Below, in pieces: positions 13,935 to 28,721 of a DNA stretch of 64,000 bases (its first letter is position 1; each line of letters starts with the position of its first letter). Source of the stretch: a bacterium (lineage in GTDB: Bacteria > Patescibacteriota > UBA1384 > VFKW01); the NCBI GenBank assembly GCA_030647355.1, contig JAUSIS010000013.1, positions 113,117 through 177,116 of the forward strand. Reading direction: 5' to 3'. The notes under the pieces are model-generated. The model did not search any database and was not told the origin of the DNA. It was given only the letters and a program-made list of their open reading frames with translations. A program made the translations under genes and the position numbers.

Positions 13935-14471
13935 ATGGAAAAAATCATCGTTATGGCATTAAGCGCGGTGAAAGTGCTGTTTGGCAAGGTGATTCTCTCT
14001 TGCCAAACAGCCGAGACACTTCAGGAGATCCAGGAAGTTATATCACAATGTCCTGACTGGAGAAAGTCCCTCGACAAGGTCAGCTTCTCCGAGAAGACTG
14101 GCTTATCGCTCTGCCGCCTGATCCACGGAGGTGCCTTATACCTCCAGCTGCGAAACCCCGTCGGACTGGTTAACTCGATCAGGATCGGAGTAATCGTAGC
14201 AGGAGACTCCGAATTCCAAACACCAACGACCTTGAACTTGCTCTTCTGTCAGTTGAAGGATCGGAAAGAATGGCGATTGGAAAAAGCAAGATGTGATCTT
14301 GCGGGAGTCATCGAGCCCGAGCCCATTCTGCGGCTTACGGAGCTACTTGGCCCAAATGGGCTTCCCGAACTAGGAGAAACCCTCAACCAGGCACCAATCG
14401 AACAAACCCGGGAAATCAGGGAGTTTCTGGACTCCTGGGTCCAGCAGCAGGTAACGACCGCAACCGCCTAG
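13935..14471 (+). CDS. Hypothetical protein, paralog A of a tandem pair (178 aa)
   Basis: Shares the block TGLSLCRLIHGGALYLQLRN with TLCQAVIGGALCLRFQE of the downstream 178-aa ORF. Upstream motif GCGCTGTTCATAG is shared with the paralog. GAAGGAGGA RBS. Confidence 0.5.
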   Translation: MEKIIVMALSAVKVLFGKVILSCQTAETLQEIQEVISQCPDWRKSLDKVSFSEKTGLSLCRLIHGGALYLQLRNPVGLVNSIRIGVIVAGDSEFQTPTTLNLLFCQLKDRKEWRLEKARCDLAGVIEPEPILRLTELLGPNGLPELGETLNQAPIEQTREIREFLDSWVQQQVTTATA

Positions 14472-14728
14472 CGACACCAACGCACACCAGAAACATCCTC
14501 ACCCTACAAAACCTCATTCCCCCGAGGCAAGACAAAGCACCACGCTTTTCACCTCGGGGCTTTGTTATTTATAGGCATTTTATAATTTTTAATTGACAAA
14601 ACTCAACAAATATGTGATTTTCAGATTAATATATTGTTCCTTTCAACCCCTCCTAGTGCTTATGGGCAGCACTTTGGATACCTAACTCAAGTATAAAAGG
14701 CATCCGAGGCGCTGTTCATAGACTACAT

Positions 14729-15265
14729 ATGGAGGACATAATGAATATTGTGCAAATGGCTCTTGTAGCGCTACGTGAACTGTTCGAAACTACAATGTCG
14801 GAAGAGTTCCCTGACCTGGGAAGCATCGCTTCCGAGCTGGAAAACATACGGCTTGGCAAATTCAAGTATTCCTACGACAACAACGGATTAACGCTCTGTC
14901 AAGCGGTAATCGGTGGCGCACTCTGCCTTCGTTTTCAAGAATCATCTCGGAGTAACACAGGCAAAGATCGGCTCACAGTCTGGCTCATCGGCGTGAGCTC
15001 CCTGAAGTGCAGCCAACTCACTCTTAGCCTCGGGTACAACCTAATAGGAATTGGGGTAGCGGAACTAGGTGCTATCAACTGCTCTTGGAGCACATCAGAT
15101 GTAGTTGCAAGCGGCGAGCCGATCAGTGCTTTCTTAAGACTGCTCCGGTTAGACGACTACAAAATGCTGGAAAGCGCCCTGAAAGCCAAGGAGGGTTTGG
15201 ATGACGTGCGCTACCTGAAGTACCTTCTCGATCTCTGGCGCCAGCGTTACCCAGAAAGCAAGTGA
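14729..15265 (+). CDS. Hypothetical protein, paralog B of a tandem pair (178 aa)
   Basis: Same length and conserved central block as 13935-14471. Upstream GCGCTGTTCATAG motif. Followed 12 nt later by a small Zn-ribbon ORF. Confidence 0.5.
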   Translation: MEDIMNIVQMALVALRELFETTMSEEFPDLGSIASELENIRLGKFKYSYDNNGLTLCQAVIGGALCLRFQESSRSNTGKDRLTVWLIGVSSLKCSQLTLSLGYNLIGIGVAELGAINCSWSTSDVVASGEPISAFLRLLRLDDYKMLESALKAKEGLDDVRYLKYLLDLWRQRYPESK

Positions 15266-15277
15266 AAGGAGCCCTGT

Positions 15278-15502
15278 ATGTTTCTTGCCCAATGTATCTT
15301 TGGTTTGTTCGTAGGCAGTATGATGTGCTATGTGTTGTGGTTCGTTTTCTTCGATCGCGAATGTCCCAAGTGCCATTCGCACTACATCAAGCACAACGAT
15401 GAATGCATTGCCGGAGGCGCCTACTTTCGAACCGTATTCTGCCGGAACTGCAGATACGTTCTCGAAACCAAGACTATCTGCGCCCCTATCTGCCATATAT
15501 GA
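15278..15502 (+). CDS. Small membrane-anchored zinc-ribbon protein (74 aa)
   Basis: N-terminal TM helix followed by CPKC...CRNC (two CxxC pairs). Tightly linked downstream of paralog B. Confidence 0.45.
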   Translation: MFLAQCIFGLFVGSMMCYVLWFVFFDRECPKCHSHYIKHNDECIAGGAYFRTVFCRNCRYVLETKTICAPICHI

Positions 15503-15594
15503 CCCCTGACGACATGTCTCGGGTCTCTTTTTATCTTTACAGAGTGAACCTTCGGTGTATAATACTAATAACGCTGCACCTTAAGGAGTAGAAG

Positions 15595-16506
15595 ATGGGA
15601 AAGATTCTCGCCCTTATGTGTCCCGGACAAGGATCGGCACACATTGGCATGGGTGAGGATCTTTATCAAACCTCGTCCTATGCCCGAACCGTTTACCATT
15701 TCGCCGACGACTATCTAAGGGGTTATCTCCGACAAATCCTGCCTTTTGAGCATTCCGACCTGACCTTGAGTAGTATCTGCTTCGAGGGGCCCCGGGAACT
15801 TCTGGAGCTACCCTCGATTGCGCCGCTGGCTGTTTTTGTCACCAGTATCGCTAACCTCCGTCTTCTTGAGGAGATAGCCGAAGAGGTAGAATGGATAGTC
15901 GCCGGACACAGCCTCGGTGAATATACTGCCTTGGTTGCCTCTAGAGTTCTGACTTACCAACAAGCCCTCTCACTAGTTCTTATCCGAACCAGATTGATGG
16001 TTCATCACGCGAGTCGAATAAACGGCGCAATGGTAGCTACTCTGGGGTTAACTGAAGCACAGGTTGCCGAAATCTGCCAGAAACACCAGCCCACAGGTGT
16101 GATCGTCATGGCAAATTACAACTGTCCGGGACAAATCGTGCTCTCGGGAGATAAGCTTGTACTTGAGAATGCCTGTCAAGACATTCTCCGCCTTGGAGGA
16201 AAGACGCGCGAACTCAATGTCGGCGGTCCCTGGCATTCCCCCCTGATGCAGCCTGCCGCTGATAAGTTCAAACCGCATCTTCGTAGAGCCAAGATCGCCT
16301 CACCCACAGGAACGCTCTACCTAAGCGGTACCGGACGGAAGGTTTCCGCACCTGCAACCATCCGCCATCACCTGCGTATTCAAATGGTATCTCCCGTACT
16401 CTGGGAGAAAACCATTCGCAACATGCTAAGAGATGGAGTAACCGACTTTATCGAGCTCGAACCGAGCAGGATACTAAGGGGATTTCTCAAGCGCATCAAG
16501 TCCTAG
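15595..16506 (+). CDS. fabD: Malonyl-CoA:ACP transacylase family acyltransferase (FabD-like)
   Basis: CPGQGS N-terminal motif, GHSLGEY active-site nucleophile elbow, ANYNCPGQIVLSG, and PWHSPLMQPAADKF as in FabD. GC-rich. Confidence 0.8.
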   Translation: MGKILALMCPGQGSAHIGMGEDLYQTSSYARTVYHFADDYLRGYLRQILPFEHSDLTLSSICFEGPRELLELPSIAPLAVFVTSIANLRLLEEIAEEVEWIVAGHSLGEYTALVASRVLTYQQALSLVLIRTRLMVHHASRINGAMVATLGLTEAQVAEICQKHQPTGVIVMANYNCPGQIVLSGDKLVLENACQDILRLGGKTRELNVGGPWHSPLMQPAADKFKPHLRRAKIASPTGTLYLSGTGRKVSAPATIRHHLRIQMVSPVLWEKTIRNMLRDGVTDFIELEPSRILRGFLKRIKS

Positions 16507-16583
16507 CCATCTAGGACTTTTTTTATGCTCAATAGACACTACACTAATACAACAACATACCAGTTTTTCACAAGCAAAGCTCG

Positions 16584-16796
16584 GTGTATAATATAGCTAT
16601 GCTAAAAAAATATCTACTCTATCTGCTAATGGGGCTGGTTGCTGAAGGCATCATCCGAGGGTTTTTCTATTTTGAAGATCGCTACCAAGCCACTCATCCT
16701 GTAAAGCAAAAAATCAATATTGAGAAAGTTGACCCAAAATATCGTCAGGACCTGCAAGACCTGAAAGATCTCAAAGATACCATTAACGGACAATAA
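16584..16796 (+). CDS. Small membrane protein with C-terminal DLKDLKD motif
   Basis: One TM helix. C-terminus ...DLQDLKDLKD matches the ...DLKDLKDLY C-terminus of the 47351-47653 small membrane ORF. Confidence 0.35.
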   Translation: MYNIAMLKKYLLYLLMGLVAEGIIRGFFYFEDRYQATHPVKQKINIEKVDPKYRQDLQDLKDLKDTINGQ

Positions 16797-16916
16797 TCTC
16801 CGGCCACAACCTCAAAAGCGCCTGTTGTAATATTAGCTAACCGGTTGACTTTGGCTGACAATTATAGTATACTTTTCGCATACTGAACGACCGAACGACT
16901 ATTTTGGAGGTAACCA

Positions 16917-17192
16917 ATGTCTGCTGCACAGATACCCGCCTCTCCCCCAAGTCTTGAGATTCCGACGCCCCCCACCGCCACCACCTACCGAGATGAAGGC
17001 CACGATGGCTCTCCTCCGGTTCAGGTCGGATGTACTCAATTCAACTCACATACTTGCCCTCTTCGCTTCCGGGGCCGCAACGAACCCTCGGAATGGTCAG
17101 GGGCCAAGTATGAGTACGATCCTCTACCGCCCCTGGACCACGACCCTGTGTGGTGCGCTACCTGCCCCGACAGGAGGCAGAAGATCAAATGA
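16917..17192 (+). CDS. Small Pro-rich Cys-containing protein (possible Zn ribbon)
   Basis: Strong GGAGGT RBS. CTQFNSHTC...CATC cysteine pairs. TTGACT-N17-TATACT promoter at ~16845-16873. Terminator at 17459-17492. Confidence 0.4.
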   Translation: MSAAQIPASPPSLEIPTPPTATTYRDEGHDGSPPVQVGCTQFNSHTCPLRFRGRNEPSEWSGAKYEYDPLPPLDHDPVWCATCPDRRQKIK

Positions 17193-17458
17193 ACTATTCG
17201 GGCTTTGCTGGATTGCGCGAATTCGTCAAGGCAATGACCACCTGTGGCAAGAGCATACGCTTGGATTAAGTCCTACTGATCCAAGCAGCAGCCGAAAAGG
17301 CCAAGCTCAGCTAGGAGCAGCGCATTGAGATCTATGAGATACTCGCTGCATCAGGATCTGATAGCATAGCGCAGAGTCGGCTGGAGAAACTCATGACTGG
17401 CACGGAAAGCCAAGTCACATCCGGCGCCGCCTAGGCGCCCGAACTTCATCCCACCCCA

Positions 17459-17492
17459 CCCCCGCCCTTTCCCAGAAAGAGCGGGGTTTTTT
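17459..17492 (+). terminator. Intrinsic terminator, family CCCACCCC...stem...TTTTTTCATACC
   Basis: Hairpin CCCCGCCCTTTC-CCAGA-GAAAGAGCGGGG followed by T6 and CATACC. Confidence 0.6.
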
Positions 17493-17506
17493 CATACCTC
17501 CACCGC

Positions 17507-17535
17507 TTGACCAGTTGTTTATGTAATGCAATAAT
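17507..17535 (+). promoter_or_regulatory. sigma70-type promoter TTGACC-N17-AATAAT upstream of purD
   Basis: Starts 14 nt after the TTTTTTCATACC terminator tail. Confidence 0.45.
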
Positions 17536-17600
17536 CCAGGCAACGCATTGTAGTAAATTCTGCATAACAACAAACCATAGAAACGGAGGAAAACACAGTA

Positions 17601-18878
17601 ATGCGTGTACTTATCGTCGGAAAGGGCGGACGTGAGCATGCTCTAACATGGATGATCACCCAAAGCCCAAGAAAGCCGGAAATTCTGGCAGCACCGGGCA
17701 ATCCCGGCATCGCCAAGTTCGGCACGTGCTATCCAATTTCGGACACAAACCTGGACGGCATCGTCAACCTGGCAGTTGAGAAAAAGGTCGACATCGTTGT
17801 AGTCGGCCCTGAAAACCCTCTGGACGCTGGCTTAGTTGACCGCTTGGCAGACGCCAATATTCTGGCATTCGGCCCCACAGCCGCCGCCGCGCGACTCGAG
17901 TCATCCAAGCTTTTTGGCAAAGGGATCATGGAAGCCGCCGGTGTCACCACTCCTGACTATCGGGCGTTCAACAATCCCGGGAAGGCGCTCAAGTACCTGC
18001 GAGAGCTGCATCTCAGCGACTTCCCGATTGTCATCAAAGCCGACGGTCTCGCTTTTGGCAAAGGCGTCTATATCTGCCTGACTCTGGAAGCCGCCGAGCG
18101 AGCAGTCCAAAACCTCATGGTCGCACGGCTTCTCGGAGAAGCCGGTGACGCCATCCTGGTCGAGGACTTCGTGAGCGGATTGGAATGCTCGGTACTCGCC
18201 GTCTGCGACGGCGAACGCTTCGTCTATTTCCGCGCCATTCGCGACTACAAGCGAATCGGCGTTGGAGACACAGGCGAGAACACTGGCGGAATGGGAGCTG
18301 TTACACCGGTTCCTGGATGCGACATCGCCTTCCACGAATGGGTAGCAGATCACATCATCGCACCCATACTCGCAGAGATGAGACGGCGCGGCATCCCCTA
18401 CAAGGGCTGCCTCTACCTCGGCTTGCTGATCAAGGACGGCGTGATCTATGTGTTGGAATTCAATGTTCGCTTCGGCGACCCTGAAACCCAACCGGCCATG
18501 CTGATGCTTGACGAGGATCTCCTGAAACTGATGCTGGATGCGAGCCACGGCAATCTTGCCATCTCCCGTCCTGCTAGGTGGCTCAATGGAGCAGCCGCCT
18601 GCATCGTCGGCGCCGCCAATGGCTATCCTGGCAATTACGCTAAGGGCAAAGCCATCTACGGCATCAACGAGGTCGAAACTGACGACACAATCGCCTTCCA
18701 AGCCGGTACTGCGCGTCACGGAAACATACTCGTCACCGACGGCGGCAGAGTAGTCGGCGTAACGTCTTACGACGCCAATAGTCTGCCGGCAGCGCTTGAC
18801 AAGTCCCTGGCAGGAATCAGTAAAATCCGCTGCTCGGACATGATCTGGCGCCCCGACATCGGCCACAACGCCGTCTGA
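17601..18878 (+). CDS. purD: Phosphoribosylamine--glycine ligase (GAR synthetase)
   Basis: MRVLIVGKGGREHALTW N-terminus, PGNPGIA, an ATP-grasp core and PurD C-domain all colinear with PurD. Very GC-rich relative to the backbone. Confidence 0.85.
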   Translation: MRVLIVGKGGREHALTWMITQSPRKPEILAAPGNPGIAKFGTCYPISDTNLDGIVNLAVEKKVDIVVVGPENPLDAGLVDRLADANILAFGPTAAAARLESSKLFGKGIMEAAGVTTPDYRAFNNPGKALKYLRELHLSDFPIVIKADGLAFGKGVYICLTLEAAERAVQNLMVARLLGEAGDAILVEDFVSGLECSVLAVCDGERFVYFRAIRDYKRIGVGDTGENTGGMGAVTPVPGCDIAFHEWVADHIIAPILAEMRRRGIPYKGCLYLGLLIKDGVIYVLEFNVRFGDPETQPAMLMLDEDLLKLMLDASHGNLAISRPARWLNGAAACIVGAANGYPGNYAKGKAIYGINEVETDDTIAFQAGTARHGNILVTDGGRVVGVTSYDANSLPAALDKSLAGISKIRCSDMIWRPDIGHNAV

Positions 18879-18912
18879 CCAAATCATCCGGAACTAAACA
18901 CCGGCAACCAAC

Positions 18913-18932
18913 GCCCCTTCGGGGGCTTTTTT
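18913..18932 (+). terminator. Intrinsic terminator after purD (GCCCCTTCGGGGGC+T6+CATACC)
   Basis: Perfect tetraloop hairpin followed by a T-run. The same hairpin type recurs at ~19674-19700. Confidence 0.65.
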
Positions 18933-18946
18933 CATACCAGTTAATC

Positions 18947-18975
18947 TTGACAAAAAAGCGTTTATACCGTACAAT
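18947..18975 (+). promoter_or_regulatory. Consensus sigma70-type promoter TTGACA-N17-TACAAT
   Basis: Located right after the TTTTTTCATACC terminator of purD. Drives the 19089 cassette. Confidence 0.55.
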
Positions 18976-19088
18976 CACATGTTGGTTGCACCTCTGGAAT
19001 CTTCCTTGATTGGCTGCGCTTTGGATATTGTTCAAATCAGTATTCAAACCGTTGCCAACCACCAACGAAAAAATAGGAGGATTACCGT

Positions 19089-19661
19089 TTGAATGCACGC
19101 CAACGAATGATCTGTTTTGTCCAAGGGATAGTTGCCGGACTCTGGAACAACCCGAAGTTCGAAACCGCTATCCTACCTGAGGCAACCGGGCTGAAACGGC
19201 TCGAGAATAGTTTCAGCCAGTACCCGGCACCCGCGGAACCGAACCGTATCATAACGGAGTACGGGCATGATGTCTTGAGTATTGGCTACATGACACTCGG
19301 CGGGCTGTTGACTTTCAACTGCTACCCCTACTCTTACATCATGTGTTGCATCAGGACTACCGTCGGACCTGACAGCCTGGAACAACTCTTCTCTCTCGGT
19401 TGGAACCTCAAAACCGACCAGATGGATAGGGTTGGAACGCCTAACTCAAATATCCTGTATCAAGGACTAAACGGCGCTTTCCTGGATCGGCTCAACGAAC
19501 AACTCGATGTTCTTGGACGGATACTGGCCGGCAGGTATCCCGGTGCTGACATCTATGGCTATTACACCGACCAGCTCAAGCAAATGCTGATGGCGGACGA
19601 GAGTCCTAGTGCGGTATTGTTCCGCGATCTACTCCTTGAATGCGGCTCGATCAGAGCCTAA
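19089..19661 (+). CDS. Hypothetical protein (GC-rich cassette)
   Basis: 190-aa ORF with a GGAGGA RBS. Own promoter at 18947-18975 and terminator at ~19674-19700. Confidence 0.45.
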   Translation: MNARQRMICFVQGIVAGLWNNPKFETAILPEATGLKRLENSFSQYPAPAEPNRIITEYGHDVLSIGYMTLGGLLTFNCYPYSYIMCCIRTTVGPDSLEQLFSLGWNLKTDQMDRVGTPNSNILYQGLNGAFLDRLNEQLDVLGRILAGRYPGADIYGYYTDQLKQMLMADESPSAVLFRDLLLECGSIRA

Positions 19662-19761
19662 CGATCCCCTACCAACGCCCCTTCGGGGGTTCTTTTTTTA
19701 TTTCCATGCGTTTGGGTTGACCTTGATAATCGCTCAGCTTATACTCAAGCAAAGGAGCATT

Positions 19762-20370
19762 ATGCAAAAAAGTCCAGAGACATTTACGGAATTAGACCAC
19801 GACGAAGTGCAACGAAAAAGAGATATTGCCGAAATCGAACATTTTAAATTTAAGGGTGCCTGGAAAAGAATAGGCGCCGATTGCTCTGGAGATTCCAGAG
19901 GAGCATGCGCACGAAGCAATAGTGGCAAATGTGGTGTCTACCATAACTGTGAAGCTGCCTCGGCAGCAATGGGGCCCGAGGAAATATGCCCAGCTCACAC
20001 ATCCGAAGAAGATGCTCATAAAGAAGCGGAAGCTATTTACGAAAAAGTTAGTCAACTGGCAAAATTCCATGATATTAGCGATAAGTCCTTTGAATTAAAA
20101 CATGAAATTATCGCTACTAACGGTGATAAAGTTCAACCGAAATATATACTTGATAAAACAGACGAAAGATCAACTGAAGATTTAGCTTGGTATGATCCTG
20201 AGGACATTAAAACTAGTCTAATACTCAAAACAAACTTCCAAAAAGATAGTGATCGGGAAGGGAATGATAATTCTTCTTTCGAGCTTCCTCCGTCTCCTAC
20301 CCCGGAACAGCTAGGAATACTAAAAGAATTCTGCGAAATTCATGGATTATTTAGATCCGAACAACAATAG
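19762..20370 (+). CDS. Hypothetical acidic protein with Cys-rich segment
   Basis: Start at MQKSPETF after an AAAGGAG RBS. Promoter TTGACC-N17-TATACT at 19716-19745. Confidence 0.4.
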   Translation: MQKSPETFTELDHDEVQRKRDIAEIEHFKFKGAWKRIGADCSGDSRGACARSNSGKCGVYHNCEAASAAMGPEEICPAHTSEEDAHKEAEAIYEKVSQLAKFHDISDKSFELKHEIIATNGDKVQPKYILDKTDERSTEDLAWYDPEDIKTSLILKTNFQKDSDREGNDNSSFELPPSPTPEQLGILKEFCEIHGLFRSEQQ

Positions 20371-20450
20371 AGAAACTATATTACTCGAAAAAGCCCGCTT
20401 GACCAGTTACCGACGGGGTGTATAATCCAGACAAAGAAAAGAAAGCTTGA

Positions 20451-21335
20451 ATGAATAACCTTAGAGATAAACCACTTTTTATAGTCACCCTTTTAGCAGC
20501 ACTACTAGCTTTTTGTATATTCAAGAATGAGCTAAGTCAAAAAACAATTTTCTTGGGAATTGCACATACGAACTTATTACAGTTGATTCTCATATTTGCC
20601 ATTCTCCTTTCGCTATCAGCATATTTATACGCATTAGATTTCGTTAGATATGGCACCAGTTTCGAGAATAACATCATCTTGAGACGTTTTATCCTCGTCG
20701 GACACTTTTTTTATATCTTAGCAGTTTTCTTTCCTATAATTATTGGGTTAGTTTGGCTCATAGTCTGGTTATTAAATATTATCTTAGCAAACGTAATTGT
20801 TAATCAGATAGTTACAGTAGTAGTTCTTAGTCTGTCATTTTTCATAAGTAGTTACTTTGCAGACAAAATGAAAAGAAGCCAGAGGAATCAGTTGGCAGAA
20901 AAAATACAAGAGAAAACCGAAGAAAATATGGAAAGAGCATTTGAGCTATATACACAAAAATTTTACCCATCTTTCATTTTAGAAAGCTATAACACCGCTC
21001 TTTCCTTGATTCGAACTACGCTTGAATCAAAAGGCTATAGCACTATTAATCTGCCTGCTACAACGCTCCTGCTGCTCGCCAAGAAAGAAAAGGTTATTTC
21101 ACCATCAGCGCAGGAAAAATTAAATAAACTAAAGATTCTTAGAAATAAAGCAGCCCACATGAATATTACTTTGAGTAAAGCAGATGCTGATTTTGCTAAG
21201 GAAATAGTCAAAAGCATATCAAAACAATTAGATTTCCATCAGTTACTCGAGAAGGAAACGGAAGAAGACCAGCAGAAGTTTAACAAACAAATTAAAACAA
21301 TACAAAATTATATAAAAAAAATTAGAAATAAATAA
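20451..21335 (+). CDS. Membrane-anchored protein with C-terminal HEPN-like (Rx4H, DUF4145-like) domain
   Basis: About four N-terminal TM helices. C-terminal LNKLKILRNKAAHMN carries an Rx4H HEPN motif in a helical context. Very AT-rich. Confidence 0.45.
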   Translation: MNNLRDKPLFIVTLLAALLAFCIFKNELSQKTIFLGIAHTNLLQLILIFAILLSLSAYLYALDFVRYGTSFENNIILRRFILVGHFFYILAVFFPIIIGLVWLIVWLLNIILANVIVNQIVTVVVLSLSFFISSYFADKMKRSQRNQLAEKIQEKTEENMERAFELYTQKFYPSFILESYNTALSLIRTTLESKGYSTINLPATTLLLLAKKEKVISPSAQEKLNKLKILRNKAAHMNITLSKADADFAKEIVKSISKQLDFHQLLEKETEEDQQKFNKQIKTIQNYIKKIRNK

Positions 21336-21399
21336 ATGATTCTCTTTTGCAGGAAGACGAAATAAGCTAACGCTTCTAAACTCTAATTAAAAAGAATAG

Positions 21400-21665
21400 C
21401 TCCCGCTTCATCGCTCCTTTGTTTCTTTGAAAAGGAGAAGTCAATTACGCTCCCAAAGAAGCCTCGGCCACAGGATGGAATCCTAGTGGAACGCTGGGAG
21501 TGTCTTTGAGGAAGTAATTTATTTTCGACGCTTCCCAAGAAGTCGTGCAGGGGTATGGGATTGTAAGGGACATAGGGGGCGGCATCGAAACGAGCCCCCT
21601 TACCCCTTACATACCCTGGCGCTGTCAGCGCCAAAAACCCAGGCATGTCCCATGCCCTCAAACAA
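21400..21665. ncRNA. GC-rich structured intergenic element (candidate small RNA; strand and class unknown)
   Basis: GC-rich island between two AT-rich genes. Nested hairpins CCTGGCGCTGTCAGCGCCAAAAACCCAGG and GGGGGCGGCATCGAAACGAGCCCCC. The 99-aa minus-strand ORF across it looks spurious. Confidence 0.3.
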
Positions 21666-21719
21666 TCTATGCTATAATACAAATAGTAAACTCACTCAAA
21701 AAATAAAAAAGGAGAGGAA

Positions 21720-22439
21720 ATGTTGGAGCTCAAAGATGTAACTAAAAAATTCGGCCCCATAACCGCCGTAGATAATTTATCTTTTGAAATAAACGAAGGC
21801 GAAATAGTCGGCCTCATCGGCCCAAACGGCTCCGGCAAAACCACCGCCCTCAAAATGATTGCCGGCCTCTACCGCCCAACTTCCGGCAAAATAACCATCA
21901 AAAACCACGATGTCGCCAAAGACGCCGAAGAAACTCGCGCTCTTCTCGGCTACATTCCGGATGAACCGGCTGTCTACAGCAAACTGACCGGCGACGAATT
22001 CCTCAATTTTGTCGGAGAAACATTTGGCATCCCCGCCGACAAACGCCAAAGCGCCATTGCCGAACTCCACAAACAATTCCCAATGGAAGAACAAACCGGC
22101 GGCTATTTTGAAGATTATTCCCGCGGCACCCGCCAAAAATTTATGATCATGGCCGCCTTACTTCACAAATCGCCTTTGCTTTTGATTGACGAGCCGATAG
22201 TCGGCCTCGACCCCTCGAGCGCCCACACCGCCACTCGCCTCTTCTCCGAATATGCCAAAGAAGACAAAAGAGCCATTCTCGTCTCCACCCATTCTCTGGC
22301 AGTCGCCCAAGAACTCTGCGACCGCTTCATCGTCTTATCAAAAGGCAAAATGGTTGCCCAAGGGTCGCTGAGCGAACTGCGCAAAGACGCCCAAACCGAC
22401 GGCTCTTTAGAGCAAATCTATCTCAAACTGGCAGAATAA
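21720..22439 (+). CDS. ABC transporter ATP-binding protein
   Basis: Walker A GPNGSGKTT, signature region, Walker B LLLIDEP, and an H-loop. Confidence 0.85.
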   Translation: MLELKDVTKKFGPITAVDNLSFEINEGEIVGLIGPNGSGKTTALKMIAGLYRPTSGKITIKNHDVAKDAEETRALLGYIPDEPAVYSKLTGDEFLNFVGETFGIPADKRQSAIAELHKQFPMEEQTGGYFEDYSRGTRQKFMIMAALLHKSPLLLIDEPIVGLDPSSAHTATRLFSEYAKEDKRAILVSTHSLAVAQELCDRFIVLSKGKMVAQGSLSELRKDAQTDGSLEQIYLKLAE

Positions 22440-22441
22440 TC

Positions 22442-24082
22442 ATGAACACATTATCACTTTTCAACATAATCAACCGCGGCAATTCCTATTGGCGAGGCAA
22501 AAACAAGGCCTTTCCCGTTATTGTCTCCGCTTTTATCGTCCTTATCTTAGGGATTGCCTTCGGCGAATATTACGGCTTCCGATATATCCTGCATACTCTC
22601 GAAGAAGATCCTTTCTTCAAAAACATCATCATTTCCTTTAGCTTCCACGCTATCTTCGCCATTCTCTTTTCCTTGATTGTCGCCAGCGCCCTTATCATAA
22701 GCCCGATATTATTTTTGAAAAACCGCTATGATAATTTTCTATTATCCTTGCCAATTAAAACCCATACCATTTTCTCCGCCCGTTTCATTACCCAGCTAAT
22801 TCTTCTCGGCTGGACAGCCATTATCTTCGGCATGCCGATAATTCTCGCCATCGGCATCAACACCCACGCTTCATTTTCGTTTTACCTGATCGCTGTCATT
22901 TATTTAGCCCTGCTTATCGTCTTAGCCGGAGCTATCAGCAATGCCCTATTGCTTTTGATAATCGCCGTCACCAAAAACAAAATCCCCCGCCTTACCACCC
23001 TGATTAGCTTGGCGGGCGCCGCCCTTTTCTTCTATGCCTTAGTGCGCACTGTCACCCCCCACAACCTCGTGCCATTGCTCCTGCCCGACAACCAAAGCCA
23101 CGTCACTGCCCTTGTAAACATCACCACACAATTTCGCTATTGGCCTTCCACTTGGTATGCCGATTCTGTCTTGCCGCTCGTCAACGGCACTGCGCTTTCG
23201 ACAATTAACTTTCTAATTCTGCCCCTGGTAACCATTGCCGTTTTTCTAATTCAATATCTTCTGGCAGTCAAATTCTACCGCTCGGCACTCCAAGAAACCC
23301 AAGAAAGCCGCGAGAAAAAACCCAAAAAGAACAGTTTTCTAATCAAACTATCCGGCGCCCCAATGCTTTTAGTACGCCAATGGGCGCAAGTCGCCCGCAC
23401 CCGAAACGACATTAACCAACTTTTCCTGTTTATCCTACTCTTTCTTATGTATCTCGGCTTTATCGCCAATTCTCCCAATCTCGGCAGCACACCGGATCCG
23501 GTTTGGACGCCACGCATAATATTTTTCCTCCTGCTTGTGGTCGTCTATTTCATTATCTTAATGGCACTGCGCTTTGCTTTTCCCTTTGCCAGCTTGTCAG
23601 CCAATCTCTCGTGGTTCAATCTATCTCTGCCCCGCTTTCGCGCCCGCTCCTATTCCAGCCATATCATGGCCACATTCCTGCCCATCGCCATAATCCTCGA
23701 GGTAATTATTTTCTTTACCTCCCGCATCATGCAATTCTCCGCGTCTTTTACCACTCCCATGCTGATTATTACTCCTATTTTATGTTTAACCATTATTACC
23801 CTCATCACTGCCGTCGGTTCGGTCTTCCCCGCCTCCCACAACATCAATCCGGAAACTATGAGCACCACTCCCTCCGGTTTACTGGCTCTGGTCGTCGCCA
23901 ACATTTACGCCCTGCTTGCCATCGCCGCTCTCTGGAAAGAAGCATCCAATGCTATAACCGGCGGTCACATTGGTATAAATATCGGCTCTCTTTATTTAAT
24001 CGCTTTATTGAGTTCACTTCTTCTCACTATAATCTTTTGGCGCATCGGCCAGTCGGCCTTCCGCCACCTTCGCCTGGCATAG
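22442..24082 (+). CDS. ABC-2 type transporter permease (multi-TM)
   Basis: 546-aa highly hydrophobic protein immediately downstream of the ATPase, with start overlapping the ATPase stop. Confidence 0.6.
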   Translation: MNTLSLFNIINRGNSYWRGKNKAFPVIVSAFIVLILGIAFGEYYGFRYILHTLEEDPFFKNIIISFSFHAIFAILFSLIVASALIISPILFLKNRYDNFLLSLPIKTHTIFSARFITQLILLGWTAIIFGMPIILAIGINTHASFSFYLIAVIYLALLIVLAGAISNALLLLIIAVTKNKIPRLTTLISLAGAALFFYALVRTVTPHNLVPLLLPDNQSHVTALVNITTQFRYWPSTWYADSVLPLVNGTALSTINFLILPLVTIAVFLIQYLLAVKFYRSALQETQESREKKPKKNSFLIKLSGAPMLLVRQWAQVARTRNDINQLFLFILLFLMYLGFIANSPNLGSTPDPVWTPRIIFFLLLVVVYFIILMALRFAFPFASLSANLSWFNLSLPRFRARSYSSHIMATFLPIAIILEVIIFFTSRIMQFSASFTTPMLIITPILCLTIITLITAVGSVFPASHNINPETMSTTPSGLLALVVANIYALLAIAALWKEASNAITGGHIGINIGSLYLIALLSSLLLTIIFWRIGQSAFRHLRLA

Positions 24083-24084
24083 AA

Positions 24085-24843
24085 TTATTGCACTTGCGAT
24101 ACTTTCCAAAGCTGCTGGAACCAGTTGCGCATGGCAGTCGCGTTTTCCCTGGAAGTAATCACCACACCAAAATTTTCTTTTATTGAGGTCAAAATTGCTA
24201 CATTATCGCCATAAATATAATAATGCGCCGGACACTCAAAACCAACTGGCCCTATTCGCCTCTTTCTCAAGCCTTCCTTCGGATCAAAAAATGAATCAAT
24301 CTTGCCTCTAACCCATACCGAGCGCGTCCAAATCCCCTTCTTTACCTTTCGAGCCACCCAATCAATAAAAAAATTCTTATCCAAAATATCAGTCAATTTG
24401 TTAGTTTCTCCGACATAATAAATCTCATCAACTGGCGTCTCAAGAATCTCCTCGTAAATCGCCTTAATCTCCTCACCTCGGAAAAACCGGACCCTTGGCT
24501 GAAACGGCGAAAACTCGTATAACCGGTTGAATTCCGGCAGAAATTTCTCCAAATTCTCCGCCTGTTCCTGCAATTTCTCCTGCTTGCCTCGAATCAGCGT
24601 CATAATCTTACGAGGCGGATAAGGTATATAAATCCGACGTGTTGCCGTCTGCGTAATCTCAATTAATCCCCTATCTCTTAAGTTTTCTAATTCATGAAAA
24701 ACCGTCGTCCTCGGCAAACCAGTCTTTTCTTTAATTGACACTATACTCGATTCACCAAGTTCAAGACAAGCCAAATAAACTTCAATCTCTTTTTCACTTA
24801 AATCCAATTGTTTTAAAAAATCATCGAATTGCATACTGTCCAC
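24085..24843 (-). CDS. TrmB family transcriptional regulator
   Basis: N-terminal HTH LSEKEIEVYLACLELGESSIVSIKEKTGLPRTTVFHELENLRDRGLI typical of TrmB. C-terminal sensor domain. Confidence 0.7.
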   Translation of the reverse strand: MDSMQFDDFLKQLDLSEKEIEVYLACLELGESSIVSIKEKTGLPRTTVFHELENLRDRGLIEITQTATRRIYIPYPPRKIMTLIRGKQEKLQEQAENLEKFLPEFNRLYEFSPFQPRVRFFRGEEIKAIYEEILETPVDEIYYVGETNKLTDILDKNFFIDWVARKVKKGIWTRSVWVRGKIDSFFDPKEGLRKRRIGPVGFECPAHYYIYGDNVAILTSIKENFGVVITSRENATAMRNWFQQLWKVSQVQ

Positions 24844-24974
24844 CTATTTGGATGATATTAGGAATTGATTTAATCTTACAATAAGCCAAATAACCTGTCA
24901 ATATGGCAATTGGTATCCAATGGTATTGACATTTTTTTGCTCTTAGCGGATAATTTCACGTCAAGCTTAAAGCT

Positions 24975-25165
24975 GACAAAGAACCCATTGCACAAGTCTC
25001 TTAGGTACGAAACAGGAAAGATTATCGACGAAAGACTAGAACTTATGAGGAAACGTAGCCAAAGCTACGTTGACAAATAATTCTTGGCTTGCAGTCATAA
25101 GATTCCCTGCTGCAGTAACCAATAGATCCTGTGAAATGGGTTCGTTACCTTAACAAGAAAGGAAC
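24975..25165 (+). promoter_or_regulatory. Long structured leader upstream of the secreted-protein/radical-SAM operon (riboswitch-like architecture, class unknown)
   Basis: Promoter TTGACA-N17-GATAAT at ~24927-24955. Long-range pairing GAACCCATT (~25003) with AATGGGTTC (~25133) encloses about 120 nt containing the hairpin CGTAGCCAAAGCTACG. Confidence 0.3.
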
Positions 25166-25741
25166 ATGACCCTAATGAAACGTCTGATCATGGCAGTCCT
25201 GGCAGTATTTCTCATTTCTACCTCCCGCACCACCGCCGACCAGCTGGACACCCAGTTCAACTCCTCCCTTACCTGGAACCAGGACGGCATAACCAGCAAA
25301 TACATCCATAGGGAGGCCTACTTTGCCCATCTACGGGAGAATGAGGTGAACATCGGTGCTAGAGTCTCTGATAATCTGACACTGTACGGCGCCTACATCA
25401 CCAACAACCAAGGGGTAGATCGGGCCGGTATCGTCATCGCCATATCCCAACCGCTGGATAGTAAATGGCATGCCTCCGCCAGTCTTCACCTCTACAAAGG
25501 GCTGAACTCCGCTCCCGACAGGTTCAAATGGACCTTGGTCATCGCCAAACCGGTAAGCAAACACTGGTTAGTCGGTATCTACAACTTCGGCAACAGCGTG
25601 CACGGCAATCCCAATAAGTATTGGGAAGGCGGGCCAGCGCTGATTTATCGAAATGGCGCAACAACCATCCCCATTTTCTTTCTCCTGAAAGACGAGGGAA
25701 GAAAGGGAATCCAAGCCAACCTGAACTTCGCGCTAAAATAG
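25166..25741 (+). CDS. Secreted hypothetical protein (signal peptide, beta-rich)
   Basis: N-terminal signal MKRLIMAVLAVFLISTSRTTA. GC-rich. Overlaps or abuts the downstream radical SAM gene. Confidence 0.45.
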   Translation: MTLMKRLIMAVLAVFLISTSRTTADQLDTQFNSSLTWNQDGITSKYIHREAYFAHLRENEVNIGARVSDNLTLYGAYITNNQGVDRAGIVIAISQPLDSKWHASASLHLYKGLNSAPDRFKWTLVIAKPVSKHWLVGIYNFGNSVHGNPNKYWEGGPALIYRNGATTIPIFFLLKDEGRKGIQANLNFALK

Positions 25742-25752
25742 GAGGAAGCAAG

Positions 25753-27168
25753 ATGGAAACCTTTGATGCACATGGTAATGATGACCAGTATAACCGAACC
25801 TGGATACTCGAGGGCACTCACCCTCGTTACCCTGCGATTGTGCTGGTTTCGCCCCGAAACGATCCGAACCGCTATCGGCTGATAGACAGCTCTGACAAGG
25901 GAGCTAGGAAGGGCAGGCGGACACGCATGTCCCTGGGACTGCTCTTTCTGGCCAGCCATCTGCAGGAAGAAATGGGATACCAATTCAATCAGGCACGACC
26001 AACGGAGAACAGCATATTAGCAAAGCTCTCCAAGGGAAAGGTCATTGGTATTTCAACTCTCCCCAGTAGCTACCTGATTGCTACCCAATTGGCAAAGATA
26101 GCCAAGGAATCGGGCGCGATATCGGTCGTCCTTGGGGGACCTTATGCCTCCAGCTGCGCCAGGGAAGTACTCCTGAACCAGCCGGCAGTTGATCTGATCA
26201 TCAGCGGCCCGGGGCAGATACCCCTGCAAATGATCCTGGAAGACCAGGCCCCAGCCAGTATAAAGGGAGTTTCCTATCGCCAGAGAAACCAGATAGTTCA
26301 AAATACCCTACAGTGGCCGCCCTATCCTCGGACAGATACCGACTATTCTCTCTGGACAAGGCAATCTGACGAACATCATGCTCTCACCTACTGGCAAGAC
26401 GGCTGCCCGGTGGGATGCAGACAACCATGCGTCTTTTGCTTCTCCCGCAAAACTACTCCCGTCAGATGTCCAAGCGAGCAAGTTATACGAGAAACAAGAG
26501 CGCTGGTTAATCAAGGGTATAAGACTGTCGAGGATGGAGGGGATGATTTCCCCTGCGGCGGAATACAAACCTATGGCTGGTTAGAATCCCTTATGACAGC
26601 TAAGACCAGGGAAAAGCTCAAACTCGATATGTTCATCCACACATCAGTCAGGAGTGCCACCTGGCAATTCCCGGAACACAGCGAGCTTTGGATGATCAAA
26701 CGCCTTAGGGATATCGGCGTCAAGACCATGCAAGTAGGCTTCGAAACAGATAATCCTTACCAGATGGTGCTCGAGAAAGAATCTCCCGATAAGATCGAGT
26801 TCCTAATCCGTACCGCTCGAGAGTTGGGCATGAATTTCTTCGGAAGTTGGATATTCGGTCATCAAGGGGAAAGTCGAGCAACCATGCTCCGGACAGTAGA
26901 GAAAATCTACTCGATTCACGAACAAGGCCTCCTTTGGGGGCTGCAGTTTGACCTCCTCTGGCCAGGCCCCTCAACTCGCGCCCTCCAAATGCTCCTACCC
27001 GATCATCCCGAGTGGCAAGATCGGGACTTCCTCCCACCAGAAGAGGTCATATCCGCCTGGTTCAAGACCTACACCAAGACCACATTAGACGAAGCGAGAA
27101 ACCTGCGCAATCAAGTCGTCGTAGATCTCTATGACCAGCTAAATTGCGTCGGCAGCATGCTTCTATAA
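25753..27168 (+). CDS. B12-binding domain radical SAM protein
   Basis: N-terminal Rossmann-like B12-binding region (VIGISTLPSSYL...VVLGGPYAS). Radical SAM CxxxCxxC motif in the CRQPCVFC segment. AGGAGG RBS before ATG at 25753. Confidence 0.7.
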   Translation: METFDAHGNDDQYNRTWILEGTHPRYPAIVLVSPRNDPNRYRLIDSSDKGARKGRRTRMSLGLLFLASHLQEEMGYQFNQARPTENSILAKLSKGKVIGISTLPSSYLIATQLAKIAKESGAISVVLGGPYASSCAREVLLNQPAVDLIISGPGQIPLQMILEDQAPASIKGVSYRQRNQIVQNTLQWPPYPRTDTDYSLWTRQSDEHHALTYWQDGCPVGCRQPCVFCFSRKTTPVRCPSEQVIRETRALVNQGYKTVEDGGDDFPCGGIQTYGWLESLMTAKTREKLKLDMFIHTSVRSATWQFPEHSELWMIKRLRDIGVKTMQVGFETDNPYQMVLEKESPDKIEFLIRTARELGMNFFGSWIFGHQGESRATMLRTVEKIYSIHEQGLLWGLQFDLLWPGPSTRALQMLLPDHPEWQDRDFLPPEEVISAWFKTYTKTTLDEARNLRNQVVVDLYDQLNCVGSMLL

Positions 27169-27186
27169 ACCCCCACAAACCCCCAC

Positions 27187-27217
27187 CCAGCTCTTTTCAA
27201 AAAAGAGCTGGTTTTTT
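27187..27217 (+). terminator. Intrinsic terminator after radical SAM gene (CCAGCTCTTTT-CAAA-AAAAGAGCTGG+T6)
   Basis: Perfect 11-bp stem preceded by CCCCCACAAACCCCCACC. Confidence 0.65.
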
Positions 27218-27218
27218 A

Positions 27219-27857
27219 TTAGAGAATACCGGGTAGCTCTCCCAATGAGCTATAGACGCTAACCTTATTTTTTCTAGCAATATCTTGGGGATCGGCAATA
27301 TATTTATTCGGAATAAATACCACCTGGCACCCGGCTGCCAATCCTGCCGTCACCCCTATCTCGCTATCTTCCAAAATCAGGCAATCCATCGGCTTGTTGC
27401 CTGTTGCTTCTATCGCCTTAAGGTAACAATCAGGCGCCGGTTTGGGTCGTCCTTGATCGCCCAAAGCAATAATTTTACTAAAAAAATCCGCCACTCCCAG
27501 ATGACTCATCTTGGTTGAGAGCGATATTTCAGCCGCATTGGTAACCAACACTAACTCATACTTTGGCTCCAAATACTCGAGAAGTTCTCGAGCGCCAGTT
27601 TTCAATTGAGCCGAAGGGTAATTCGCCTCCGCCCTGATAAGATCAATCAATTCCTTGTGGGAAAGCTGAATATCGCAATCATTAACAATGCGCTTGGCTA
27701 AATCCTCCCCTGAAAGACCGAAAAAGCTGCCAAATTCATCCGGATCCATTGATTTATTATGATCTTTGAGAATTCGAATTATCGCCCCGTATATCAGTTC
27801 GTCGGTGTTAATCAGTAATCCATCCAGATCGAAAAAAATTGCTTTAATATTCTTCAT
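27219..27857 (-). CDS. HAD superfamily hydrolase (beta-phosphoglucomutase-like subfamily IA)
   Basis: FFDLDG motif I, VTNA motif II, and K...EDS motifs III/IV. Confidence 0.8.
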   Translation of the reverse strand: MKNIKAIFFDLDGLLINTDELIYGAIIRILKDHNKSMDPDEFGSFFGLSGEDLAKRIVNDCDIQLSHKELIDLIRAEANYPSAQLKTGARELLEYLEPKYELVLVTNAAEISLSTKMSHLGVADFFSKIIALGDQGRPKPAPDCYLKAIEATGNKPMDCLILEDSEIGVTAGLAAGCQVVFIPNKYIADPQDIARKNKVSVYSSLGELPGIL

Positions 27858-28185
27858 ACTCCCTCGTTCTCTGGAATAATTATAACACACCTTACATCCA
27901 ACCCACTGCTATGGACCTACGCCACCTCTTTTCTCATAAATTAAAACCGTGCCGACTTATGACTAGGTCAGCGGCACGGTTCCAAGGAGAATTTGTTCCG
28001 GGCGGGACCCCACCCGCCACTAGGGTCACTCACAACAGATGGTAGCACTGTCCCAACTCTCGAAGGGACGCCCCCTCTATGTACCCAGCTTCATGCAACG
28101 CAGGAAGCTTTAGCTAAAGAAGATTATACCCGAAAGAACCCATTAAGTCAACTGGGTATTCTCCCTCGTTGCTTAACCTGCAACC

Positions 28186-28214
28186 TTGACAAACCTGTTG
28201 GCTAATGATAAAAT
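28186..28214 (+). promoter_or_regulatory. Consensus sigma70-type promoter TTGACA-N17-TAAAAT
   Basis: Exact -35 and near-perfect -10 with a 17-nt spacer, about 45 nt upstream of the ORF at 28257. Confidence 0.6.
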
Positions 28215-28256
28215 GCTGACAACCAACCGAACTCTGCATTTCAGGAGGAAGAAACG

Positions 28257-28556
28257 ATGGTATGTCAGAAATATGTCTGCCTATCTAAGTACTTGTTGGA
28301 GCATTTTGGGGACCTGCGAGGACAATTCTGTCGGTGCCAGATTCCGTGTAACAGCACGGATCTGATATTCCTGGCACTCTCCAGACCGGAGTCCTTCCAG
28401 GAAACTGTCGGGCTAAGTATACGGGAATTCAACGCCCTTCATCTGCCCGATGAGGTTTCTGAAGCAATTGAGACTGGCACCATTGACACACTCCCCGAGA
28501 AACTTGAGGTCTGGATCCGGGCTAAAGTACAATACCTGACTGGTAAACCCGCCTAG
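28257..28556 (+). CDS. Hypothetical protein (99 aa)
   Basis: Perfect TTGACA-N17-TAAAAT promoter at 28186-28214 and a GGAGGA RBS. Terminator at 28592-28626. Confidence 0.4.
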   Translation: MVCQKYVCLSKYLLEHFGDLRGQFCRCQIPCNSTDLIFLALSRPESFQETVGLSIREFNALHLPDEVSEAIETGTIDTLPEKLEVWIRAKVQYLTGKPA

Positions 28557-28591
28557 ATCGACACACTGCTTCAGCATCCCCACCCCTTCCC

Positions 28592-28626
28592 GCCCAGCCC
28601 TTTCTGTAAAAGAGCTGGGCTTTTTT
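28592..28626 (+). terminator. Intrinsic terminator (GCCCAGCCCTTT...AAAGAGCTGGGC+T5+CATACC)
   Basis: Preceded by CCCCACCCCTTCCC. Same family as 27187, 29375 and 63914. Confidence 0.6.
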
Positions 28627-28651
28627 CATACCCCTAAGTCAAGATTAACTT

Positions 28652-28680: not shown

Positions 28681-28721
28681 TATCGCTACCGTAACAACAT
28701 TACCCTCATGGAGGATTACCA

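What the first reader, a model, noticed from the sequence alone, without database searches (positions are those of the whole stretch)
21400..21665. GC-rich, hairpin-dense intergenic element between the HEPN-like gene and the ABC transporter: candidate small RNA
About 260 nt with much higher GC than either flanking gene, no credible ORF (the 99-aa antisense ORF has no RBS and odd composition), and nested stable hairpins (CCTGGCGCTGTCAGCGCCAAAAACCCAGG and GGGGGCGGCATCGAAACGAGCCCCC). It lies upstream of the -10 box of the ABC transporter promoter, so it is probably an independent transcript rather than a 5' UTR. I could not match it to RNase P, tmRNA, SRP or 6S consensus features by eye.
Basis: seen in the sequence. 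Interest (0 to 1): 0.5.

Follow-up and report, generated by a model that had tools for sequence, protein, structure and literature searches.

The report
Orphan hairpin-rich spacer, function unproven
The 265-base stretch is a real, non-coding, hairpin-rich spacer between two genes of an uncultivated bacterium, but nothing shows that it is a small RNA gene, and similar hairpin-rich spacers are common in this genome.

Summary
The spacer folds far better than shuffled sequence, and most of that signal comes from its 3' half, 21546-21662 (z -4.6). The antisense 99-aa ORF is not coding by codon usage or homology. Several points weaken the small-RNA reading. GC (0.52) exceeds only the upstream gene (0.33), not the ABC gene (0.51). 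Eight of 27 other spacers in the window are equally structured. The pairing is almost entirely Watson-Crick and equally stable on both strands, so no strand can be assigned. The element has no promoter or terminator of its own, although canonical ones are obvious elsewhere in this genome. No Rfam family matches, and no second copy or homologue turned up anywhere. The only relative of the ABC operon (52% identity) has a different sequence at that position.

My best reading is a lineage-specific palindromic spacer that is co-transcribed with the upstream HEPN-like gene, acting at most as an RNA 3' barrier or insulator. An independent small RNA remains possible (about 0.15-0.2) but has no positive evidence beyond the fold. 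Interest is low.

The parts
20399..20426 (+). Nearest strong upstream promoter-like site (TTGACC-16-TATAAT, 11 of 12). It lies upstream of the HEPN-like gene and is the likely source of transcripts that run through the element.
20451..21335 (+). Upstream gene: a 294-aa orphan with hydrophobic N-terminal segments and a C-terminal HEPN/DUF4145-like region carrying an RNKAAH (Rx4H) motif at residue 231. NCBI tag Q7S37_04745.
   Evidence: Pfam hits are all below threshold: DUF4145 E 5.6e-4, HEPN E 0.011. Motif and hydropathy. No homologue among 5.8 billion proteins. No PADLOC or PHROG family. The AlphaFold model has low confidence, pLDDT 63.7.
21336..21397 (+). AT-rich tail after the stop codon, with no intrinsic terminator.
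21414..21437 (.). Hairpin CTCCTTT-N10-AAAGGAG (7 bp).
21441..21509 (.). Long hairpin of the 5' half: TCAA..ACGCTCCCA / TGGGAGTGT..TTGA, enclosing CCACAGGAT-GGA-ATCCTAGTGG. A U-rich tract follows only after 8 nt (21518-21525).
   Evidence: (I4). This half is weakly significant (z -2.1 on +).
21447..21542 (+). Two copies of a 15-mer, ACGCTCCCAAAGAAG (21447-21461) and ACGCTTCCCAAGAAG (21528-21542), 81 nt apart. There is no extended tandem repeat.
   Evidence: D3. In one search, 1 of 500 shuffles reaches the same score. TRF finds no array.
21546..21662 (.). 3' domain, the significantly structured core. On the + strand it folds as a three-way junction: an outer stem 21550-21561/21647-21658 (12 bp, 3 G-U), a long arm 21562-21569/21604-21611 plus 21574-21580/21594-21600, and a short arm 21617-21623/21627-21633. 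The alternative fold uses the local hairpin GGCATG-TCC-CATGCC at 21642-21656.
   Evidence: z -4.57 on +, -3.33 on -; forbidding G-U costs 1.8 kcal on + and 3.2 kcal on -.
21567..21583 (.). The 17 nt (GGGACATAGGGGGCGGC) missing between two independent Logan contigs of run SRR13727527. Those contigs otherwise match the window 100% (7601-21566 and 21584-30189).
21383..21682 (-). 99-aa antisense ORF (87 aa from ATG 21646). Judged not coding.
21670..21678 (+). Extended -10 (TGCTATAAT) of the ABC operon, with no recognisable -35. The palindrome GGCATGTCCCATGCC occupies the -35 position.
   Evidence: The site is not reported by the two-hexamer scan.
21720..24082 (+). Downstream ABC operon: ATPase (21720-22439) and PF16949 permease (22442-24082).

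Best explanation
The element is a lineage-specific, non-coding cluster of imperfect palindromes in the spacer between the HEPN-like gene and the ABC operon. It is not a gene with its own transcription signals.

No terminator separates it from the HEPN-like gene, and the nearest strong promoter is that gene's own. The element is therefore most probably transcribed on the + strand, either as the 3' tail of that mRNA or as the intercistronic part of a read-through transcript. If its hairpins do anything, they would act as a 3' structural barrier or insulator: they would protect the upstream message from 3'-exonucleases or dampen read-through into the ABC operon, which also has a proximal extended -10 promoter. 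This is how REP-type intercistronic palindromes work in enterobacteria.

Shown here: the element is non-coding, the hairpins are real, it lacks its own promoter and terminator, it matches no known family, and no homologues were found. Inferred: co-transcription and the barrier role. Its origin as a decayed or single-copy palindromic (MITE/REP-like) element is plausible but unproven.
For: - Hairpins and folding energy exceed chance.
- Pairing is almost purely Watson-Crick and the energy is about equal on the two strands (-105.8 against -101.5 kcal/mol). Forbidding G-U costs 2-7 kcal. This is the signature of DNA palindromes rather than of a strand-specific evolved RNA.
- The element has no promoter-like site of its own apart from a 9-of-12 match inside the HEPN-like coding end, and no + strand stem followed directly by a T-run.
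- The same genome shows 10-12 of 12 promoter matches upstream of neighbouring genes, including 20399-20426 for the HEPN-like gene. It also shows canonical terminators after purD and the next gene. Promoter-like sites number 53 against 24.8 +/- 4.2 in shuffles.
- Hairpin-rich spacers and small repeat families are common in this window.
- The relative L002 carries a different long palindrome at the equivalent position upstream of its ABC operon.
- NCBI's annotation gives the three genes consecutive locus tags, so nothing was called in the spacer.
Against: - No second copy exists in the 64-kb window, so repeat-element membership is not shown.
- No expression data exist, so co-transcription is inference only.
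- The stems are long and nearly perfect, which could equally reflect selection on a functional RNA.
- The + strand z-score is stronger than the - strand one.
- This is the most GC-rich spacer in the window, which is typical of structured RNAs in AT-rich intergenic DNA.
- A barrier or insulator role has not been tested.
Confidence: 0.4

Rival explanations
1. Independent small RNA: a transcript of about 120-270 nt on the + strand, with the three-way-junction domain 21546-21662 as its functional core.
For: Strong fold (z -4.6 to -5.1 on +). It is non-coding. It is the highest-GC spacer in the window. It lies upstream of the ABC extended -10. It belongs to no known family, so it would be new.
Against: It has no canonical promoter or terminator, in a genome where both are conspicuous. 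The fold is strand-symmetric. No homologue was found, and the element is absent from the only relative of the operon. The structure is no more extreme than in 8 of 27 other spacers.
Confidence: 0.17
2. Selfish or relic palindromic DNA element (MITE/REP-like) with no dedicated function. Other copies would lie elsewhere in the genome, outside the 64-kb window.
For: The 3' domain is a long imperfect inverted repeat with Watson-Crick arms. The window holds several small hairpin repeat families. L002 has another palindrome at the same place. The two Logan contigs stop inside the palindrome, as happens where a de Bruijn graph branches at a repeat or variant. The other Logan break, at 30189, lies next to a repeat at 30196-30226.
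Against: No second copy in the window, in L002, or in the phage, plasmid, viral, genome or metagenome collections. I saw no target-site duplication when reading the flanks. The covariance model of the window's own 150-nt repeat does not hit it. The Logan gap can also be a coverage or sequencing-error dip at GGGGGCGGC inside an inverted repeat.
Confidence: 0.25
3. DNA operator region of the ABC promoter. The perfect palindromes GGCATG-N3-CATGCC (21642-21656, at the -35 position) and GGCGCTG-N-CAGCGCC (21618-21632) would be binding sites for a dimeric regulator, for example the neighbouring TrmB-family protein (24085-24843, - strand).
For: The palindromes are perfect with short spacers, and they sit where the missing -35 of an extended -10 promoter would be. 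A TrmB-family regulator is encoded next to the operon.
Against: Neither palindrome recurs in the window, including upstream of the TrmB gene. This reading explains only about 40 nt of the 265. L002's promoter region has no such sites.
Confidence: 0.1
4. Small protein gene on the minus strand (87-99 aa, 21383-21646/21682).
For: The reading frame is open for 99 codons. GAGG lies 9 nt upstream of ATG 21646. A gene caller called the partial ORF at the edge of the Logan contig.
Against: Codon log-odds is -0.005 (0.014 from the ATG). That is below the 5th percentile (0.071) of 99-codon windows of real genes and matches shadow ORFs at -0.024. No Pfam, PADLOC or PHROG family matches. No word-sharing homologue exists among 5.8 billion proteins. 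The only two phmmer hits among 1.84 billion representatives are tandem-repeat proteins that match through many repeated stretches, which I judge spurious. NCBI did not annotate it.
Confidence: 0.03

Closest known systems
REP/BIME intercistronic palindromes of enterobacteria (mRNA 3' stabilisers such as malE-malF; from my own knowledge of the literature, not checked here)
   Same: GC-rich imperfect palindromes in a spacer between co-directional genes, with Watson-Crick symmetric stems and no promoter or terminator of their own. They are proposed to act on the upstream mRNA's 3' end.
   Different: REPs are 35-40-nt units with a consensus, present in hundreds of copies. Here there is one 265-nt composite with no other copy in 64 kb and no consensus to compare.
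MITE-like hairpin repeats (Correia/CREE, ERIC, RUP, from my own knowledge) and this window's own 150-nt repeat at 53600-53750 and 60815-60965
   Same: A size of 100-150 nt, long terminal inverted repeats that form an outer stem, internal branch hairpins and an intergenic location.
   Different: No second copy, no target-site duplication seen, no sequence similarity and no hit with the covariance model of the window's repeat.
Intrinsic terminators and terminator-derived 3'-UTR small RNAs
   Same: Stable GC-rich stems directly downstream of a gene on the same strand.
   Different: No stem on the + strand is followed by a T-run. Genuine terminators in this genome have one.
Curated structured RNAs (Rfam 15: RNase P, tmRNA, SRP, 6S, riboswitches, ribozymes, HEARO, OLE, GOLLD, ROOL and others)
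   Same: Size range and density of helices.
   Different: No match at gathering score anywhere in the window. With E up to 10 on 21200-21800, only chance miRNA-type hairpin hits appear (best E 0.37, 21.5 bits against a gathering score of 94). ARAGORN finds no tRNA or tmRNA.
Type III toxin-antitoxin RNA antitoxins (ToxI-like)
   Same: A non-coding region adjacent to a putative RNase-type (HEPN-like) gene.
   Different: No tandem direct-repeat array. It lies downstream, not upstream. The neighbouring protein is not of the ToxN/AbiQ family, and its HEPN assignment is itself below threshold.

Membership tests
Any Rfam 15 family (including RNase P, SRP, 6S, riboswitches, ribozymes) | Covariance-model score at or above the family's gathering threshold | tested here: not met
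   0 matches in the whole window. The best sub-threshold hit on 21200-21800 is mir-H7, 21.5 bits against 94.
tRNA / tmRNA | Cloverleaf or tRNA-like domain, plus a tag reading frame for tmRNA | tested here: not met
   ARAGORN finds 0 genes in the window.
Independent bacterial small RNA gene | Own promoter upstream | tested here: not met
   The only site is a 9-of-12 match at 21280-21308, inside the HEPN-like coding end, at the frequency expected by chance (1 found, 1.0 expected). Neighbouring genes have 10-12 of 12 matches.
Independent bacterial small RNA gene | Own intrinsic terminator at the 3' end | tested here: not met
   No + strand GC stem is followed by a T-run. The one weak + strand site (21481-21499) has a poor tail. 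The only stem with a T5 tail is on the - strand at 21657-21641.
Independent bacterial small RNA gene | Discrete transcript detected | not testable with these tools
   No expression data are available.
Conserved structured RNA | Homologues with compensatory base changes | tested here: inconclusive
   No homologue could be retrieved. The collection scans need exact pattern matches, so diverged copies would be missed. The one related operon (L002) lacks the element.
REP/MITE-type repeat element | Multiple copies in the genome | tested here: inconclusive
   No other copy in the 64-kb window by blastn or covariance model. Only 64 kb of a contig of at least 242 kb could be searched.
REP/MITE-type repeat element | Terminal inverted repeats | tested here: met
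   GGGTATGGGA / TCCCATGCCC and GGGATTGTAAGGG... / ...CCCTTACATACCC (I2, I7, I9).
Intrinsic terminator of the upstream gene | GC-rich stem immediately followed by a U-run on the gene's strand | tested here: not met
5' leader or riboswitch of the ABC operon | Lies between the operon's promoter and its start codon | tested here: not met
   The only promoter element found (TGCTATAAT, 21670-21678) lies downstream of the element. No canonical promoter lies between 21336 and 21400. This rests on consensus prediction only.
Type III TA antitoxin RNA | Tandem array of direct repeats next to the toxin gene | tested here: not met
   TRF finds only CCCCTTA x2. A single 15-mer occurs twice, 81 nt apart.
Small protein gene (minus strand) | Gene-like codon usage and detectable homologues | tested here: not met

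The most novel reading that the evidence does not exclude
The three-way-junction domain 21546-21662, perhaps with the 5' hairpins, is a new lineage-specific structured RNA. It would be functionally coupled to the membrane-anchored HEPN-like (Rx4H) gene immediately upstream, for example as an RNA partner, decoy or antitoxin of a HEPN RNase. That would make it a downstream, non-repetitive counterpart of type III toxin-antitoxin RNAs.
Probability: 0.04. Interest if true: 0.65.

Novelty: new member of a known kind. Interest (0 to 1): 0.2.

Why it matters
If it were a real small RNA, it would be an uncatalogued structured RNA from a very sparsely sampled, unclassified bacterial lineage, where the neighbouring proteins have almost no relatives among billions of sequences. 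On the evidence available it is one more hairpin-rich spacer in a genome full of them. Its practical value is as a caution: folding z-scores and high GC alone do not single out RNA genes in this genome. The repeat at 53600-53750 and 60815-60965, which does show compensatory changes, is a better target.

Tried and rejected
- Known RNA families: Rfam at gathering score on the whole window and at E <= 10 on the region, plus ARAGORN. Nothing.
- Coding on the minus strand: rejected by Pfam, PADLOC, PHROGs, a word-indexed search of 5.8 billion proteins, full phmmer against 1.84 billion representatives, and codon log-odds. The only two phmmer hits are tandem-repeat proteins matched through 5-7 repeated stretches, which I judge spurious.
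- Pseudogene remnant of the gene that sits upstream of the ABC operon in L002: tblastn finds no similarity. The 19-nt match CCTAGCGCTGTCTGCGCCG has E 0.086.
- Synteny-based homologues: the permease has one useful homologue (52% identity), and its upstream spacer is unrelated. Permease-based scans of genome and metagenome contigs found nothing. The HEPN-like protein has no homologue at all.
- DNA pattern scans for the element in the viral (4 patterns), genome and metagenome collections, and blastn against phages and plasmids: no hits.
- Cluster look-up: it identified the source as an NCBI MAG labelled only 'bacterium'. The extra 52-aa cluster member P0008 does not resemble the permease on reading and sits in an unrelated gene context on its contig.
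- Tandem duplication of an 80-nt unit: only a 15-mer is shared.
- Membership in the window's own hairpin repeat family: the covariance model R2 does not hit it.
- Operator regulon: the palindromes do not recur.
- Assembly chimera at the Logan break: unlikely. A repeat family occurs on both sides of the break (17457-17495 and 29371-29409), and purD and the ABC operon are also linked in L002.
- Invertible-segment explanation of the 17-nt gap: the break points do not coincide with any pair of inverted repeats (read).
- Hammerhead-type or tRNA-with-intron readings of the three-way junction: no core motifs seen by eye and no Rfam hit.
- Structure prediction of the HEPN-like protein: pLDDT 63.7 and pTM 0.30, too poor for a fold search.

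Full report
**What is there.** The window region 21336-21719 is the spacer between a 294-aa orphan gene (20451-21335, + strand) and an ABC transporter operon: an ATPase at 21720-22439 and a PF16949 permease at 22442-24082, both on the + strand. GGGGGCGGCATCGAAACGAGCCCCC is at 21575-21599 and CCTGGCGCTGTCAGCGCCAAAAACCCAGG is at 21615-21643. An extended -10 (TGCTATAAT) is at 21670-21678 and the RBS is at 21709-21717. The 'HEPN-like' label rests on sub-threshold Pfam hits (DUF4145 E 5.6e-4, HEPN E 0.011) plus an RNKAAH (Rx4H) motif and hydrophobic N-terminal segments. The protein has no homologue among 5.8 billion sequences and matches no defence or phage family.

**Is it more than chance?** Yes for structure, only partly for composition.
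- The whole spacer on the + strand folds at -113.9 kcal/mol, z = -5.1, with 0 of 100 shuffles as stable. On the - strand z = -3.0.
- The signal sits in the 3' half, 21546-21662: z -4.57 on + (0 of 200) and -3.33 on - (1 of 200).
- The 5' half, 21398-21546, is weak: z -2.1 and -1.15.
- GC of 21400-21665 is 0.523. That is well above the upstream gene (0.325) but equal to the ABC ATPase gene (0.508), and it is the 87th percentile of all windows of that size. It is still the most GC-rich spacer in the window; the others range from 0.21 to 0.50.

**Background of this genome.** Strong folding is not exceptional here. Eight of 27 other spacers have z <= -3.3 on at least one strand. They contain canonical terminators, long leaders and several small hairpin repeat families. 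After regressing folding energy on GC, the element's best 260-nt window ranks 6th of 1594 on the + strand. Windows at 33961-34300, 53321-53580 and 18081-18340 rank above it.

**Coding?** The 99-aa antisense ORF (21383-21682) scores -0.005 bits per codon against codon usage trained on 39 long genes of the window. Real-gene 99-codon windows score 0.207 +/- 0.084 (5th percentile 0.071), and shadow ORFs score -0.024 +/- 0.143. The ORF has no Pfam, PADLOC or PHROG family and no word-sharing homologue. An exhaustive phmmer search returned only two tandem-repeat proteins, matched through 5 and 7 repeated stretches, which I judge spurious. The in-frame ATG at 21646 does have GAGG 9 nt upstream, so 'no RBS' is not strictly right, but the ORF is not credible. 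NCBI's annotation of the source MAG gives the three genes consecutive tags (Q7S37_04745, _04750 and _04755), so nothing was called in the spacer.

**Known RNA?** No Rfam 15 family reaches its gathering score anywhere in the 64 kb. At E <= 10 on 21200-21800 only hairpin-type chance hits appear, the best being mir-H7 at 21.5 bits against a gathering score of 94. ARAGORN finds no tRNA or tmRNA.

**Strand and transcription signals.**
- The fold is almost purely Watson-Crick. For 21398-21662 the MFE is -105.8 kcal/mol on + and -101.5 on -. Forbidding G-U pairs costs 7.4 and 5.4 kcal. The three-way junction predicted on the + strand depends on three G-U pairs in its outer stem. Without them the same bases form local hairpins. 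Structure therefore does not assign a strand and looks like DNA-level palindromy.
- The genome uses conspicuous canonical signals. In 10-30 kb there are 53 promoter-like sites against 24.8 +/- 4.2 in shuffles, with 10-12 of 12 matches upstream of purD, the two following genes and the HEPN-like gene (20399-20426). GC-stem plus T-run terminators follow purD (18913) and the next gene (19677).
- The element has no such promoter on either strand and no + strand terminator. No terminator separates the HEPN-like stop codon from the ABC start.
- The ABC gene has only an extended -10 with no -35. The perfect palindrome GGCATGTCCCATGCC sits at the -35 position.

**Relatives.**
- The lineage is barely sampled. 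The permease has one useful homologue (P0001, 52% identity), on contig L002 of GCA_009885355.1. That contig also links the ABC operon with purL, purN and purD.
- L002's 419-nt spacer upstream of the ABC operon is unrelated to the element. It is not hit by a covariance model of the 3' domain (R1). It carries a different long palindrome, GTCATTCTGAGC...GCTCAGGATGAC.
- Permease-based scans of GTDB genomes and JGI metagenomes, and pattern scans for the element in genomes, metagenomes and viral contigs, returned nothing. Blastn against phages and plasmids also returned nothing.
- No other copy exists in the window. The covariance model of the window's own 150-nt hairpin repeat does not hit the element.
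- Covariation could therefore not be tested.

**An oddity.** Two Logan contigs from run SRR13727527 are 100% identical to the window. They end at 21566 and start at 21584, leaving out GGGACATAGGGGGCGGC in the centre of the strongest hairpin. Two explanations fit: a coverage or sequencing-error dip at a GGC-rich inverted repeat, or a second allele or copy in the sample. The next Logan break, at 30189/30640, lies beside a repeat at 30196-30226. Simple inversion models do not fit the break points. A chimeric join is unlikely, because a repeat family occurs on both sides (17457-17495 and 29371-29409) and the purD-ABC linkage is shared with L002.

**Interpretation.**
- Best (confidence about 0.4): an orphan palindromic spacer without its own transcription signals. 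It would be co-transcribed from the HEPN-like gene's promoter and act, if at all, as an RNA 3' barrier or insulator in the manner of REP-type intercistronic palindromes. That analogy comes from my own knowledge and was not tested.
- Rivals: a functionless MITE/REP-like relic with copies elsewhere (0.25); an independent small RNA (0.17); operator palindromes for the ABC promoter (0.10), which do not recur in the window; and a minus-strand small protein (0.03).
- Most novel reading not excluded (about 0.04): an RNA partner of the HEPN-like gene.

**Verdict.** Interest is low (0.2). If it is anything, it is a new member of a known kind.

Noticed in passing
window 53600-53750 (+) and 60815-60965 (+): Two copies of a hairpin element of about 150 nt. 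The 136-nt core is 87.5% identical and folds as a three-way junction. The outer 12-bp stem differs between the copies at 4 pairs, with both sides changed and pairing kept. No Rfam family reaches its gathering score in the window scan, and its covariance model (R2) finds no further copy in the window or in L002. This looks like a better structured-RNA or MITE candidate than the assigned finding.
   Followed up: partly
window 34040-34215 (+): A long self-complementary leader lies between a TTGCCA-17-TATAAT promoter (read by eye, about 33994-34022) and the rpsF(S6)-ssb-rpsR(S18) operon. The spacer has z = -4.7 on the + strand and no Rfam hit at E <= 1. It may be an uncatalogued ribosomal-protein leader.
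   Followed up: partly
window 17457-17495 ~ 29371-29409; 28578-28629 ~ 63898-63951: Two small repeat families (85-87% identical) that include a C-rich tract followed by a canonical GC-stem plus T-run terminator. The terminators seem to be spread as repeat units.
   Followed up: no
window 36531-36574 ~ 36589-36632, and 36610-36660 ~ 53421-53467: Another hairpin repeat motif (GTCGAGAAGTTTT...GTTCTCGA...CTCGAACAATAA), locally duplicated and shared between two spacers.
   Followed up: partly
window 21567-21583 and 30190-30639: Independent Logan contigs of SRR13727527 match the window 100% but break at these places. The first break is inside the element's main hairpin. The second is next to a repeat (30196-30226, similar to 44737-44767 in inverted orientation). 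The cause is unresolved: a coverage dip, a second allele or a second copy.
   Followed up: partly
L002 about 1613-1713: The only relative of the ABC operon has a different long palindrome (GTCATTCTGAGC...GCTCAGGATGAC) in its upstream spacer. It has no Rfam hit at E <= 1.
   Followed up: partly
window 19089-21335: Three consecutive orphan genes (190, 203 and 294 aa), each with a promoter-like site upstream. GC drops to about 0.33 from roughly 20000 to 21400. The 294-aa protein combines hydrophobic N-terminal segments with an Rx4H HEPN-like C-terminus and has no homologue in the 5.8-billion-protein search. None of the three matches a Pfam family at threshold or any PADLOC family.
   Followed up: partly
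window 1-64000: No tRNA gene and no Rfam family at gathering score in 64 kb. The source is an NCBI MAG labelled only 'bacterium' (contig of 241,868 nt), and its proteins have very few relatives.
   Followed up: no
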